Assembly: GCA_036565605.1 (NCBI GenBank)
Contig: DATCXV010000009.1
Coordinates: 4,977 to 68,976, forward strand
Reading direction: 5' to 3'
Source of the DNA: Minisyncoccota bacterium
Lineage (GTDB): Bacteria; Patescibacteriota; Minisyncoccia; Phycocordibacterales; UBA6065
Length of the DNA: 64,000 nucleotides
The notes under the pieces were generated by a model that was not told the origin of the DNA, did no database searches, and saw only the letters and a list, made by a program, of their open reading frames with translations. Position 1 is the first letter of the stretch, and every line of letters begins with the position of its first letter. Positions 60,924 to 62,849 of this stretch are shown here, in pieces. A program made the position numbers and the translations under genes.

Positions 60924-61211
60924 CTAAAGTGTCACCCCTTCAGCGCGCAGAAGCGCAATTTTAGCTGCACTTCCCTGCTTACCACCACGAATACCGTTAT
61001 AGCCACCAATTTTTCCATCGGCACGAACAACGCGATGACATGGTACCGACGTATCTACGTTGTTAGCCATAATCATACCCACCGCCCTCGATGCGTTCGG
61101 AGAACCGGCACGCTTGGCAACCTCGCCATATGAAAGAGTCTTGCCCATTGGAATATCACGGACAACTTTTAATACTATTTCTTTAAAGGAGGCTTTTTGT
61201 AGAGTTTTCAT
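60924..61211 (-). CDS. methylated-DNA-[protein]-cysteine methyltransferase, DNA-binding/active-site domain only
   Basis: 95 aa containing VPCHRVV (PCHR active-site cysteine motif) and YGEVAKRAG. Confidence 0.75.
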   Translation of the reverse strand: MKTLQKASFKEIVLKVVRDIPMGKTLSYGEVAKRAGSPNASRAVGMIMANNVDTSVPCHRVVRADGKIGGYNGIRGGKQGSAAKIALLRAEGVTL

Positions 61212-62019
61212 CGCCGTTTTTCTTACCCACTGATTTTTTCATGAATGGGGCCTGGACTTCAAGCGCCAATTTGCGGTAATTGCAGTATTCACACATATCG
61301 CCTGGCTTGGGCAATTCACCGCCTTCAAGACAATCTTGTGCGCGCATAATGGCATCTTCTACCCACGAATCATCACCCGTGTACGGAATAAGTGTCACTT
61401 CGAAATCAAGACGGCCGTCGAAGGCCTTGCGATCACGCAGACCATTGGCATACACAAAATATCCAGTATCCGAAACCTGGAAGCCTTTGTGACGCAAAAG
61501 CCACTGATACACCTCCATTTGGCGTTTGTAACCGTCTTGCCATTCAGCGTCAAGGGAAACTTTCTCACCTTCGCTCTTGGACGTGGATTTATAATCGACC
61601 ACAATAAGCTCTCCTTTTGGATTGACCCAGATATCATCAACGGCTCCAGAAATAGTGAGACCGGATTTTGGATGGACGTATTGGATTCCTTCAAAAACCT
61701 CGCGCCAGGTATCAATATCTTTGTGTACGAATGGAATTGCATCGACACCGTACTGCTTCATCAGCGGATGCGCTGATGCCGCTGCGCGATGGATGTCGAA
61801 TTCCTTTTTAAGGAGTGCGTCAACAGCAGAGTTCAGATTGAACGGAAAGCCTTTCGGACGCGCAACTCCTAGTCGGTTATCAACATAGAAGCAACGCGGA
61901 CATTCTATGAAAAGATCCAGTTTTGAACGCGACAACTTCCATTTTGGGCCGCCATAATTATAATCCGCACTGCGTACGGGTTTTGGACCGAATGAAAATT
62001 TTTTCGCGTCTTTAGGCAT
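61183..62019 (-). CDS. PD-(D/E)XK superfamily nuclease, Cas4/RecB-like with Cys clusters
   Basis: GAVDDIW...LIVVDYKST (D...D/E-x-K), QMEVYQWLL (RecB-family QhxxY), N-terminal CPRC and C-terminal CEYC Cys pairs. Confidence 0.6.
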   Translation of the reverse strand: MPKDAKKFSFGPKPVRSADYNYGGPKWKLSRSKLDLFIECPRCFYVDNRLGVARPKGFPFNLNSAVDALLKKEFDIHRAAASAHPLMKQYGVDAIPFVHKDIDTWREVFEGIQYVHPKSGLTISGAVDDIWVNPKGELIVVDYKSTSKSEGEKVSLDAEWQDGYKRQMEVYQWLLRHKGFQVSDTGYFVYANGLRDRKAFDGRLDFEVTLIPYTGDDSWVEDAIMRAQDCLEGGELPKPGDMCEYCNYRKLALEVQAPFMKKSVGKKNGDENSTKSLL

Positions 62020-62024
62020 ATTTC

Positions 62025-62849
62025 TTATATAACACCACCACAGATATGACGAATCTCTTCTTGGGTCTCGCTTTTCAAGCCTGGCAGACCGATTAATTGT
62101 TTACACAAGATCAGACCTTGGTCCAAGAAGGCGTGCTTTTCAGCTTGCGAAAGTGTGGTAAGGGCGGTCAAAGGGTGCAGGTGCGCCTGTGCGATCATGT
62201 CTTCTAAATTCCCCTTACGCGGATAATTCCAACCAACAAGCGAAAGCTCCTGGCATTCAGCGTATTGAATTGCACGATCGCTGAATTTGGTATTGGTAAA
62301 TAACTGCCACGAAGAAAGCTTTCGCGTTTTGCCACCATAGACGAATTCGCCGTTCTTCAAATCATCGAAGCGTGCCTTTACATACAGCGCAACTTTCGAA
62401 TCTGATTTCATTCCCTGCTCATTATGAAACTTTGCTTCGACCATGATCAATTCATTTCCACGCCAAGCAACCACATCGACTTCGTGTTCAATACAGTGAC
62501 CTTGGACAATCTGATCTGTGACAGCCTCATAGCCTTGTGCCTTAAAAATCTCGGCAATAAATTTTTCGAACGGAAAACCGTTTGGACCAAGTTCGGCTAC
62601 CGCACGCTTCATGGAATAACGCGCAGCAACCGGACGGGATGCGTGGCGTAAAAGTGAGAAAGCATGGCGGTAAATATCACCGGTCGACATACCAGACACC
62701 ATTTCGCTTTCAACATGAGAAAGTACGTTGTTCGCCTGTTCATCGCCCGCACCCGCTCTTTTCAAAGACGAAACGAGCTTCTTGGGATCAAAGGGCTCTT
62801 GTTCGCCCGTAGACTTGGTAATGAGAAATGGTTTCGACAAGGGATTCAT
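62025..62849 (-). CDS. ATP-cone domain fused to Mrr-like (PD-(D/E)XK) restriction-endonuclease domain
   Basis: Start taken at MNPLSKPFLITKSTGEQEPFDPKKLVSSLKRAG... (ATP-cone pattern as in NrdR/RNR). It is followed by HEVDVVAWRGNELIMVEAKFHN (D...E-x-K Mrr_cat-like core). The ORF track extends it to 62924, overlapping mnmA. Confidence 0.6.
   Translation of the reverse strand: MNPLSKPFLITKSTGEQEPFDPKKLVSSLKRAGAGDEQANNVLSHVESEMVSGMSTGDIYRHAFSLLRHASRPVAARYSMKRAVAELGPNGFPFEKFIAEIFKAQGYEAVTDQIVQGHCIEHEVDVVAWRGNELIMVEAKFHNEQGMKSDSKVALYVKARFDDLKNGEFVYGGKTRKLSSWQLFTNTKFSDRAIQYAECQELSLVGWNYPRKGNLEDMIAQAHLHPLTALTTLSQAEKHAFLDQGLILCKQLIGLPGLKSETQEEIRHICGGVI

What the first reader, a model, noticed from the sequence alone, without database searches (positions are those of the whole stretch)
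60924..62849. Translationally coupled nuclease trio: ATP-cone-Mrr fusion, Cas4-like Fe-S PD-(D/E)XK nuclease, MGMT-domain protein
Three minus-strand genes are packed with 5-nt spacing or a 29-nt overlap. The first fuses an allosteric ATP/dATP-sensing ATP-cone to an Mrr-type restriction-endonuclease core, implying a nucleotide-gated DNase. The second is a RecB/Cas4-like nuclease with a QhxxY motif and two CxxC pairs (probable Fe-S or Zn site). The third is a minimal O6-alkylguanine-transferase-like domain, which in some contexts acts as an alkyl-DNA sensor rather than an enzyme. A family-4 UDG lies just beyond. This could be ordinary repair. However, a nucleotide-sensing restriction-like nuclease coupled to a Cas4-like nuclease and a damage-recognition domain is also the kind of architecture seen in uncharacterised defence or DNA-surveillance systems.
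Basis: partly seen in the sequence, partly recalled or inferred. Interest (0 to 1): 0.6.

Follow-up and report, generated by a model that had tools for sequence, protein, structure and literature searches.

The report
Housekeeping nuclease and repair genes, not defence
The three tightly packed genes are real and correctly identified, but they sit in a conserved core-genome block of a Paceibacteria (CPR) bacterium and come and go independently, so they look like ordinary nucleic-acid maintenance genes; the only unusual member is a widespread, untested ATP-cone-nuclease fusion.

Summary
All three minus-strand genes exist as described. They are an ATP-cone plus AF1548/Mrr-type PD-(D/E)XK nuclease (62025-62849), a RecB/Cas4-class nuclease with two invariant CxxC pairs (61183-62019), and a one-domain MGMT with an intact PCHR site (60924-61211). 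The 5-nt gap and the 29-nt overlap are correct.

The defence/surveillance reading is not supported:
- The genes lie in a housekeeping block (leuS, sigma70, yceG, mnmA | trio | UDG4, pepF, alaS, infA, rpsM/K/D, rpoA).
- In 80 Paceibacteria species the ATP-cone nuclease follows mnmA in 68 of 71 informative loci. It diverges at the same rate as mnmA and AlaRS.
- The other two genes are optional: both present in 13 of 63 loci, neither in 36.
- Tight spacing is normal for this genome (20 of 55 same-strand gene pairs).
- There are no defence-system hits, no phage or viral homologues, and no CRISPR array.

Outside CPR (Bacteroidota, Chlamydiota) the same fusion never sits beside these partners. There it often precedes a beta-CASP nuclease, an AMP-phosphorylase-like enzyme and a Prs-like enzyme, inside stress or hypoxia-type gene islands. 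That hints at an adenine-nucleotide-gated nuclease for nucleic-acid turnover. The hint is untested.

The parts
62857..63954 (-). mnmA (tRNA 2-thiouridylase). It is the first gene of the same tightly packed run and ends 7 nt before the ATP-cone nuclease.
   Evidence: Pfam tRNA_Me_trans 242 bits. It lies upstream of the ATP-cone nuclease in 68 of 71 Paceibacteria loci.
62025..62849 (-). ATP-cone plus AF1548-type PD-(D/E)XK nuclease, 274 aa ('ACMrr').
   Evidence: Pfam ATP-cone and Mrr_cat. PDB 1Y88 (AF1548) matches at E=2.3e-26. AlphaFold model pLDDT 84; Foldseek best match 1Y88, and NrdR ATP-cones at probability 1.0.
62610..62822 (-). ATP-cone domain (residues 10-80).
   Evidence: K12, G15, K24 and Y60 are invariant across CPR, Bacteroidota and Chlamydiota members; L25, G53, T56 and I59 are present in at least 90%.
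62235..62576 (-). PD-(D/E)XK nuclease core (residues 92-205), with H122-E123-x-D125 and E138-x-K140-F-H142.
   Evidence: D125, E138 and K140 are invariant and correspond to the D38, E51 and K53 predicted as catalytic for AF1548 (PMC1821046).
62028..62234 (-). Small helical C-terminal domain of AF1548-like_C type. It is about 10 residues shorter here than in homologues.
   Evidence: It aligns to 1Y88 up to residue 254. PF22357 hits homologues P0007, P0081 and P0100. The deletion is visible in alignment A1.
61183..62019 (-). RecB/Cas4/Exo5-class PD-(D/E)XK nuclease, 278 aa. It has a 2+2 Cys metal site and a Lys-rich tail ending in SLL.
   Evidence: PDDEXK_1 at 1.6e-15. Cas4 models score below their cut-offs. 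Invariant residues are listed. Foldseek matches RecE, Cas4, MGME1, EXO5 and AdnAB.
60924..61211 (-). Single-domain O6-alkylguanine-DNA alkyltransferase (MGMT C-terminal domain only, 95 aa).
   Evidence: DNA_binding_1 96.8 bits and TIGR00589 76.2 bits. Best PDB match is M. tuberculosis OGT at 5e-15, with SYGE, RAVG and PCHRV aligned.
60595..60834 (-). Small conserved ORF (79 aa) of unknown function. It is probably the last gene of the transcription unit.
   Evidence: No family hits. ORFs in the same slot in L005, L006, L008 and L011 share motifs with it.
60587..60610 (-). Intrinsic-terminator-like hairpin followed by a T-run. It lies between the small ORF and the UDG gene.
59968..60564 (-). Family-4 uracil-DNA glycosylase. 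pepF follows it with a 0-nt gap.
   Evidence: TIGR00758 184.8 bits. Present downstream in 43 of 63 loci.

Best explanation
The three genes are not a dedicated system. They are the middle of a mixed housekeeping transcription unit (mnmA, ATP-cone nuclease, RecB/Cas4-class nuclease, MGMT, small ORF, terminator). This unit sits inside a long block of conserved core-genome gene order in a Paceibacteria (CPR) bacterium. Each protein most likely acts on its own.

1. The ATP-cone nuclease belongs to a large, uniform family of about 280-aa proteins (ATP-cone, AF1548-type PD-(D/E)XK core, small helical C-domain). Inferred mechanism: the ATP-cone binds adenine nucleotides (ATP/dATP), as in NrdR and ribonucleotide reductases. 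This changes the oligomeric state or domain packing and so switches the D125/E138/K140 nuclease site on or off. The substrate (DNA or RNA) is unknown.
2. The second protein is a RecB/Cas4/Exo5-type end-processing nuclease. It has a 4-Cys metal site and a flexible basic tail ending in a short hydrophobic motif that resembles a sliding-clamp-binding peptide. It is probably a replication- or repair-associated exonuclease.
3. The third is a minimal but catalytically complete suicide O6-alkylguanine alkyltransferase.

Shown: gene structure, domains, conserved residues, gene order, independent presence and absence, and the lack of defence or mobile-element signals. Inferred: nucleotide gating, clamp binding and substrates.
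For: Housekeeping context: the public 96.7-kb contig carries leuS, sigma70, DUF8128, yceG, mnmA | trio | UDG, pepF, alaS, ftsA-like, infA, rpsM/K/D, rpoA.

Gene order across 80 Paceibacteria species:
- mnmA is directly adjacent in 49 of 71 loci and within 3 kb in 68 of 71.
- alaS is downstream in 60 of 63.
- PDDEXK and MGMT are both present in 13 of 63, PDDEXK only in 9, MGMT only in 5, neither in 36.

Reciprocal sampling, starting from six PDDEXK homologues: four lie in the same block, two of them with two genes and one with one gene inserted between the two nucleases. Two lie elsewhere, without the ATP-cone nuclease or MGMT.

Rate of change: the ATP-cone nuclease diverges like its housekeeping neighbours (58.1% identity, against mnmA 58.5% and AlaRS 60.2%, over 53 loci).

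Spacing: tight packing is the genome norm.

No defence or mobile-element signal: PADLOC gives only generic nuclease-domain hits. The ATP-cone nuclease has no PHROG family, no match in phage genomes and none in IMG/VR. The window has no CRISPR-like array.

Domains, residues and folds.

Precedent for ATP-cones acting through nucleotide-driven oligomerisation: NrdR (PMC9110341).
Against: The three genes do co-occur in the same order in about a fifth of the related species sampled, and more often among the closest relatives (L001, L006, L008-L011, L013, L015).

The PDDEXK-to-MGMT start/stop overlap recurs in distant relatives. When PDDEXK is present in the 63 loci it is the gene right after the ATP-cone nuclease (22 of 22). 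A functional link between neighbours therefore cannot be excluded.

Repair-type genes (UDG4, MGMT, NUDIX, nucleases) cluster here more than chance alone might suggest.

No biochemical data exist for any of the three families in CPR. Nucleotide binding by this ATP-cone is untested, and the family has Ser/Ala where, as I recall the E. coli NrdA sequence (from memory, not checked here), Arg10 lies.
Confidence: 0.72

Rival explanations
1. The genes form a functionally integrated DNA-repair operon. In this reading the ATP-cone nuclease is a damage-processing endonuclease that works with the RecB/Cas4-class exonuclease, MGMT and the nearby UDG4 in base-damage repair, tuned to the dNTP or ATP supply.
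For: UDG4 lies downstream in 43 of 63 loci. PDDEXK, when present, directly follows the ATP-cone nuclease (22 loci). NUDIX genes are inserted in some relatives. The PDDEXK/MGMT overlap is conserved.
Against: The same gene order also includes unrelated housekeeping genes (mnmA, pepF, alaS), so adjacency may simply be inherited order. Members drop out independently. In Bacteroidota and Chlamydiota the fusion is never beside repair genes.
Confidence: 0.25
2. The ATP-cone nuclease is an energy- or nucleotide-status-gated nuclease for nucleic-acid turnover and nucleotide salvage. In CPR bacteria it would supply nucleotides from scavenged or own nucleic acids. That CPR bacteria depend on nucleotide salvage is general background knowledge and was not tested here.
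For: On plasmids of Pontibacter and Criblamydia the orthologue (43-44% identity, full length) heads the same operon: ATP-cone nuclease, beta-CASP/RMMBL nuclease, a roughly 500-aa thymidine/AMP-phosphorylase-family protein, and a Prs-like enzyme.

In 59 metagenome loci with enough downstream DNA, the beta-CASP gene is the next gene in 23 and lies within 4 kb in 27. TP-family and Prs genes follow in 11-12 of 40 loci with at least 5 kb downstream.

Neighbouring genes include Usp, Hsp20, PFK, D-LDH, phosphoketolase and acetate kinase.

The MBL/Prs/TP cluster of Bradyrhizobium is induced under microoxia (PMC6515984).
Against: This is guilt by association only. About half of the non-CPR loci lack these partners, and some instead sit beside metal-efflux genes or in unrelated context. 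No beta-CASP, TP-family or Prs gene is near the CPR copies or anywhere in this window. The substrate is unknown.
Confidence: 0.3
3. The trio is an anti-phage defence or DNA-surveillance system.
For: It combines two nucleases with a nucleotide-sensor domain. By fold, the nuclease core resembles effector-gated defence nucleases such as Can2 and Cdn1. There are weak PADLOC hits to the ZorD and CARF-PDDEXK nuclease domains and to Cas4.
Against: The location is core-genome and the gene order is conserved. The rate of change is that of a housekeeping gene. The members are optional. No system-level PADLOC match. No cas genes in the flanking Pfam annotation and no CRISPR-like array in the window. The ATP-cone nuclease is absent from phage and viral collections. 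Different partners in other phyla.
Confidence: 0.04
4. The ATP-cone protein is a nucleotide-sensing transcription regulator (NrdR-like logic) that uses a nuclease-derived fold only to bind DNA.
For: In non-CPR operons it is the first gene, ahead of nucleotide-metabolism genes. NrdR shows that an ATP-cone joined to a DNA-binding module can act as a repressor (PMC9110341).
Against: The full PD-(D/E)XK catalytic set (D125, E138, K140, plus conserved His and Cys) is invariant across phyla. As general knowledge, not tested here, nuclease folds reused only for DNA binding usually lose these residues. No recognisable helix-turn-helix domain was found.
Confidence: 0.08

Closest known systems
AF1548 of Archaeoglobus fulgidus (PDB 1Y88; Pfam Mrr_cat plus AF1548-like_C)
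   Same: The nuclease core and the C-terminal helical domain are clearly homologous (E=2.3e-26 over residues 97-254; best Foldseek match). The D/E/K catalytic triad is the same.
   Different: AF1548 has only about 22 residues before the core, so it has no ATP-cone. AF1548 is itself uncharacterised and was only predicted to be a restriction endonuclease (PMC1821046).
NrdR and ribonucleotide-reductase ATP-cones
   Same: The N-terminal roughly 80 residues pass the Pfam ATP-cone cut-off and superpose on NrdR ATP-cones. The likely logic is the same: ATP/dATP binding switches the oligomeric state and activity (PMC9110341).
   Different: The output domain is a nuclease, not a Zn-ribbon or a reductase. 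The sequence match to solved ATP-cones is weak (E about 0.05-0.08). Ligand binding is untested.
Mrr, a type IV restriction endonuclease
   Same: It shares the Mrr_cat PD-(D/E)XK catalytic domain (29.6 bits).
   Different: Pfam reports no domain other than ATP-cone and Mrr_cat, so no Mrr-type N-terminal DNA-recognition domain is detected. The gene is housekeeping-like and fixed in gene order rather than patchy or mobile.
Can2, Card1 and Cdn1 (CARF-domain, cyclic-oligoadenylate-activated PD-(D/E)XK nucleases)
   Same: They work alike in principle: a small adenine-nucleotide-sensing domain fused to a PD-(D/E)XK nuclease. The nuclease domains match by fold.
   Different: The sensor is an ATP-cone, not CARF. 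There is no CRISPR or CBASS context. Sequence similarity is only marginal.
Cas4, the AddB nuclease domain, EXO5 and MGME1 (RecB-like nucleases with a metal or Fe-S staple)
   Same: The second gene has the PDDEXK_1 fold, a D...D-x-K site and QhxxY. Cysteines bridge the N- and C-termini. Folds match.
   Different: It scores below the Cas4 cut-offs (TIGR00372 34.1 against 65; PF01930 18.1 against 22.7). The Cys layout is 2+2 (CxxC...CxxC), whereas I recall 1+3 for Cas4, AddB and EXO5 (from memory, not checked here). There is no cas or CRISPR context. It carries a Lys-rich tail with a C-terminal ...SLF/SLL motif.
Ogt/MGMT alkyltransferases and ATL (alkyltransferase-like) proteins
   Same: The third gene has the complete C-terminal MGMT domain, with the Tyr (SYGE), Arg finger (RAVG) and PCHRV aligned. 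A Glu in LLRAEG near the C-terminus is seen in the sequence but lies outside the printed alignment.
   Different: It lacks the N-terminal domain of canonical Ogt and is only 95 aa. Unlike ATL sensors it keeps the acceptor Cys, and it scores better against active OGTs (5e-15) than against ATL (1e-8).

Membership tests
ATP-cone domain (PF03477) | Sequence match above the curated cut-off | tested here: met
   30.6 bits against a cut-off of 25.8, residues 10-80.
ATP-cone domain (PF03477) | ATP-cone fold | tested here: met
   The N-terminus of the AlphaFold model (block-mean pLDDT about 80-90 over residues 11-70, lower at both ends) matches NrdR ATP-cones 7P37 and 9FXK at Foldseek probability 1.0.
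ATP-cone domain (PF03477) | Binds ATP/dATP and switches activity | not testable with these tools
   Only conservation of K12, G15, K24 and Y60 (invariant) and L25 and T56 (at least 90%) is available. The family has Ser/Ala where, from my memory of the E. coli NrdA sequence, Arg10 lies.
AF1548-like PD-(D/E)XK nucleases (PDB 1Y88; Mrr_cat plus PF22357) | Homology to AF1548 over the core and C-domain, with the catalytic D, E and K | tested here: met
   E=2.3e-26. D125, E138 and K140 are invariant. PF22357 is detected in close homologues but not above threshold in the window protein itself, which has a roughly 10-residue deletion there.
Mrr-type (type IV) restriction endonuclease | An N-terminal DNA-recognition domain in addition to Mrr_cat, with a patchy or mobile distribution | tested here: not met
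   Only Mrr_cat is shared and the N-terminus is an ATP-cone. The gene is fixed in gene order next to mnmA and evolves like housekeeping genes.
Cas4 (CRISPR adaptation nuclease) | Match to Cas4 models above their cut-offs | tested here: not met
   TIGR00372 34.1 bits against a cut-off of 65. PF01930 18.1 bits against 22.7.
Cas4 (CRISPR adaptation nuclease) | Association with cas1/cas2 or a CRISPR array | tested here: not met
   No tandem or CRISPR-like array in the 64 kb. No cas genes in the 20 kb of Pfam-annotated context.
RecB-like PDDEXK_1 nuclease superfamily | PDDEXK_1 match, D...D/E-x-K and QhxxY motifs, RecB-like fold | tested here: met
   58.2 bits. D128/D129, D142-Y-K144 and Q167xxxY171 are invariant. 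Foldseek matches RecE, Cas4, EXO5, MGME1 and AdnAB.
RecB-like PDDEXK_1 nuclease superfamily | Fe-S cluster, as opposed to a Zn site, held by four Cys | not testable with these tools
   The four Cys (C40, C43, C243, C246) are invariant. The identity of the metal needs spectroscopy.
O6-alkylguanine-DNA alkyltransferase (Ogt/MGMT) | MGMT C-domain with the PCHR acceptor Cys, Tyr and Arg finger | tested here: met
   PF01035 96.8 bits. TIGR00589 76.2 bits against a cut-off of 46.4. The alignment to M. tuberculosis OGT shows SYGE, RAVG and PCHRV.
O6-alkylguanine-DNA alkyltransferase (Ogt/MGMT) | N-terminal domain of canonical Ogt or Ada | tested here: not met
   The protein is 95 aa and aligns only to the C-terminal halves of the solved enzymes.
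ATL (alkyltransferase-like damage sensor) | The acceptor Cys replaced, so the protein is not catalytic | tested here: not met
   The Cys is retained in VPCHRV. The match to ATL structures (3GVA, 1.2e-8) is weaker than to active OGTs.
Known anti-phage defence systems (PADLOC-DB 2.0) | System-specific protein models matched by the genes of the cluster | tested here: not met
   Only generic nuclease-domain hits: ZorD nuclease 9.7e-5, CARF_PDDEXK at 0.003 or weaker, and Cas4 models for gene 2. Nothing for the MGMT, the small ORF or the UDG.
   All three are present in 13 of 63 Paceibacteria loci, always inside the same mnmA-to-alaS block. They are present in 0 of 80 non-CPR loci. PDDEXK also occurs alone elsewhere.

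The most novel reading that the evidence does not exclude
The ATP-cone/AF1548-type nuclease family (at least 448 clusters at 50% identity; core-like in Paceibacteria; also in Bacteroidota and Chlamydiota) is a previously uncharacterised class of adenine-nucleotide-gated nuclease. It would couple cellular energy or dNTP status to nucleic-acid breakdown. In non-CPR bacteria it would act as the endonuclease that feeds a beta-CASP exonuclease, an AMP-phosphorylase-like enzyme and a Prs-like enzyme in stress or hypoxia islands. In nucleotide-auxotrophic CPR bacteria it would act as a salvage nuclease, possibly paired with the adjacent RecB/Cas4-class exonuclease.
Probability: 0.3. Interest if true: 0.6.

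Novelty: new member of a known kind. Interest (0 to 1): 0.3.

Why it matters
As a candidate defence system it does not matter much, because the evidence points to ordinary core-genome maintenance genes. The useful by-product concerns the ATP-cone nuclease. It turns out to be a very large, strongly conserved family with no experimental data. In Paceibacteria it behaves like a housekeeping gene. In other phyla it is operonic with nucleotide-catabolic enzymes. If its nuclease is really gated by ATP/dATP, it would be the first ATP-cone-controlled nuclease. It would also give a handle on how reduced-genome CPR bacteria, and bacteria under stress, regulate nucleic-acid turnover.

Tried and rejected
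- **RNA genes:** Rfam (gathering thresholds) and ARAGORN over the whole window found no RNA genes. The 359-nt spacer after the MGMT gene is therefore not a known RNA. It instead holds a small conserved ORF.
- **Literature:** searches for 'ATP-cone' with restriction endonuclease or nuclease, for 'ATP cone domain-containing protein' and for AF1548 found no functional study. The only item was a 2007 prediction that AF1548 is a restriction enzyme. The original ATP-cone paper (PMID 10939243) is not held.
- **ATP-cone ligand residues:** a profile search of the ATP-cone segment against the PDB gave only weak NrdR and NrdA matches (E 0.05-0.08). The alignments printed were spurious designed helical repeats, so the ligand-contact residues could not be checked residue by residue.
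- **Direct PDB search with the PDDEXK protein:** nothing significant. The fold search was needed instead.
- **Nucleotide-catabolic partners near the CPR copies:** I looked for beta-CASP, TP-family and Prs genes in the window and in the 80 CPR loci and found none.
- **Holliday-junction resolvase:** this COG-style name is given by some sources. The only Hjc signal was below threshold, in homologues (15.4 bits against a cut-off of 21.1), so I did not adopt it.
- **Two isolate-genome contexts (Sporocytophaga, Flavobacterium):** they did not show the beta-CASP/TP/Prs operon. This tempers the salvage hypothesis.
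Full report
**1. What is there**

The end of the window carries a run of minus-strand genes:

| Gene | Coordinates |
|---|---|
| mnmA | 62857-63954 |
| ATP-cone + Mrr_cat protein, 274 aa ('ACMrr') | 62025-62849 |
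| PDDEXK_1 nuclease, 278 aa | 61183-62019 |
| MGMT C-domain protein, 95 aa | 60924-61211 |
| small ORF, 79 aa | 60595-60834 |
| family-4 UDG | 59968-60564 |
| oligoendopeptidase F (pepF) | 58195-59967 |
| alanyl-tRNA synthetase (alaS) | 56358-58139 |

- The 5-nt gap and the 29-nt overlap are as stated.
- The ATG at 62849 is the correct start of ACMrr. It is preceded by TAGGAGC, 7 nt after the mnmA stop, and it agrees with 20 homologues and with the public gene call.
- A terminator-like hairpin lies at 60610-60587, after the small ORF and before the UDG. The likely transcription unit is therefore mnmA, ACMrr, PDDEXK, MGMT, small ORF. UDG and pepF (0-nt gap) follow separately.

**2. Is the packing special?**

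No. A crude gene call of the 64 kb gives about 89% coding sequence. Of 55 same-strand neighbour pairs, 20 are 10 nt apart or less, or overlap; the median gap is 21 nt. mnmA is as tightly joined to ACMrr (7 nt) as ACMrr is to the next gene.

**3. Genomic context**

- The PDDEXK protein is identical to one on a 96.7-kb ENA contig annotated as Candidatus Paceibacterota.
- The 20 kb around it is pure housekeeping: leuS, sigma70, DUF8128, yceG, response regulator, mnmA, trio, UDG, pepF, alaS, ftsA-like, infA, rpsM, rpsK, rpsD, rpoA.
- No tRNA gene, Rfam family or CRISPR-like array occurs in the window.

**4. Comparative test in CPR**

ACMrr has more than 4000 relatives at 90% clustering. The best are all from Patescibacteria/Paceibacteria, about 277 aa long and 53-74% identical. 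A scan of one genome per species returned at least 580 species, and the 80 best loci were analysed.

| Feature | Count |
|---|---|
| mnmA directly upstream | 49 of 71 loci |
| mnmA within 3 kb upstream | 68 of 71 |
| alaS downstream | 60 of 63 |
| UDG4 downstream | 43 of 63 |
| PDDEXK and MGMT both present | 13 of 63 |
| PDDEXK only | 9 of 63 |
| MGMT only | 5 of 63 |
| neither | 36 of 63 |

- Starting from six PDDEXK homologues instead, four lie in the same leuS...alaS block. Two of these have two unrelated genes (DUF7282, MgtC) and one has a single unannotated gene between the two nucleases. The other two lie elsewhere with neither partner, next to an RNase-H-like exonuclease and a nucleotidase, or next to FtsH, RecR and DnaB.
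- Over 53 loci, ACMrr is as conserved as its housekeeping neighbours: 58.1% identity, against 58.5% for mnmA and 60.2% for AlaRS.
- The picture is one of vertically inherited gene order, in which the two downstream genes are dispensable and are lost independently.

**5. Defence and mobility tests**

- PADLOC gives only generic nuclease-domain similarities (ZorD nuclease, CARF-PDDEXK, Cas4 models). It gives nothing for the MGMT, the small ORF or the UDG.
- ACMrr has no PHROG family, no tblastn match in 50,697 phage genomes and no relative in 2.9 million IMG/VR contigs.
- Only two plasmid matches exist. Both are informative for another reason (section 7).

**6. The individual proteins**

*ACMrr*
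- Residues 97-254 match AF1548 (PDB 1Y88) at E=2.3e-26. AF1548 is a structural-genomics protein of unknown function. Its predicted catalytic D38, E51 and K53 (PMC1821046) correspond to D125, E138 and K140 here.
- These three residues are invariant from CPR to Bacteroidota and Chlamydiota, together with G117, C119, H122, E123 and H142.
- The AlphaFold model (pLDDT 84) matches 1Y88 best. After that it matches effector-gated nucleases such as Can2 and Cdn1, as well as MspJI. Its N-terminus matches NrdR ATP-cones.
- The family is uniform at about 275-290 aa. At 50% clustering, 448 clusters match at E of 1e-30 or better.

*PDDEXK protein*
- It belongs to the RecB/Cas4/EXO5/MGME1/AdnAB fold class but fails the Cas4 cut-offs.
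- C40, C43, C243 and C246 form a 2+2 arrangement and are invariant. So are D128/D129, D142-x-K144 and Q167xxxY171.
- A variable Lys-rich tail ends in ...[ST]x[SQT]L[FL] in 83 of 120 homologues. I read this, by inference from the known bacterial clamp-binding consensus QL[SD]LF, as a possible beta-clamp-binding peptide.

*MGMT*
- It aligns best to active OGTs (M. tuberculosis OGT, 5e-15), with the Tyr, the Arg finger and PCHRV aligned. A Glu in LLRAEG near the C-terminus is seen in the sequence but lies outside the printed alignment. It aligns less well to ATL (1e-8).
- It is therefore a minimal enzyme, not a Cys-less sensor.

**7. A lead on function from outside CPR**

- On plasmids of Pontibacter actiniarum and Criblamydia sequanensis, a full-length orthologue (43-44% identity) heads the same four-gene operon: ATP-cone nuclease, MBL-fold protein, thymidine-phosphorylase-family protein (about 500 aa) and ribose-phosphate pyrophosphokinase. 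In Criblamydia the operon is flanked by phosphoketolase, glgP and acetate kinase.
- The MBL protein is a beta-CASP/RMMBL nuclease.
- The non-CPR branch is large (at least 7500 sequences) and is mostly Bacteroidota.
- In 80 metagenome loci of this branch, the beta-CASP gene is the next gene in 23 of 59 informative loci and lies within 4 kb in 27. TP-family and Prs genes follow in 11-12 of 40 loci.
- Other recurrent neighbours are Usp, Hsp20, PFK, D-lactate dehydrogenase, P-type ATPase and AAA_28. None of these loci has PDDEXK, MGMT, UDG or mnmA nearby.
- The MBL/Prs/TP cluster of Bradyrhizobium is induced under microoxia (PMC6515984).
- This suggests a nuclease tied to energy or nucleotide status and to nucleic-acid catabolism.
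- The suggestion rests on association only. About half of the loci lack these partners, and two isolate genomes show other contexts.

**8. Verdict**

- The domain-level interpretation is right.
- The system-level suggestion of a coupled defence or surveillance trio is not supported.
- The region is an ordinary stretch of core-genome nucleic-acid maintenance genes in a streamlined CPR genome.
- The residual interest lies in the ATP-cone nuclease family itself, which is widespread, conserved and experimentally untouched.

Noticed in passing
window 60595-60834 (-), with the hairpin at 60587-60610: A 79-aa ORF between the MGMT and UDG genes has no family match. ORFs in the same slot in relatives (L005, L006, L008, L011) share motifs with it (R[IL]xIGLxEC.R.LA ... 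GGAEE[FY].RTH). It is probably a real small protein. The public gene call instead annotates a 53-aa ORF on the opposite strand. A terminator-like hairpin follows the 79-aa ORF.
   Followed up: partly
window 61183-61290 (C-terminal tail of the PDDEXK nuclease); homologues P0121-P0240: After the second CxxC pair the family carries a variable Lys/Arg-rich tail of 12-61 aa. In 83 of 120 homologues it ends in ...[ST]x[SQT]L[FL]; others end in ...LGI or ...LGL. This resembles a bacterial beta-clamp-binding peptide. The tail is overlapped by the MGMT start codon, and the overlap (29-41 nt) recurs in L081, L174 and L175.
   Followed up: partly
L090 1972-6597 and L091 6995-11602 (plasmids of Pontibacter actiniarum and Criblamydia sequanensis): A conserved operon is shared by two unrelated phyla: ATP-cone nuclease, beta-CASP/RMMBL nuclease, a roughly 500-aa thymidine/AMP-phosphorylase-family protein and a Prs-like enzyme. 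It recurs in many metagenome loci together with Usp, Hsp20, PFK, LDH and P-type ATPase genes.
   Followed up: partly
window 1-4000: This stretch has lower G+C (0.41-0.42, against about 0.49 elsewhere). It holds a DUF2000 ORF (289-711, +) and a DUF3800 ORF (1643-2440, +), and several short ORFs without matches. It may be an accessory or acquired segment.
   Followed up: no
window 62028-62234 (C-terminal domain of the ATP-cone nuclease): The window's protein lacks about 10 residues that all aligned homologues have in the AF1548-like_C region (alignment A1, columns about 253-262). PF22357 is not detected above threshold in it, although it is in close relatives.
   Followed up: no
whole window: No tRNA gene, no Rfam family at gathering thresholds and no CRISPR-like tandem array was found in 64 kb.
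   Followed up: yes
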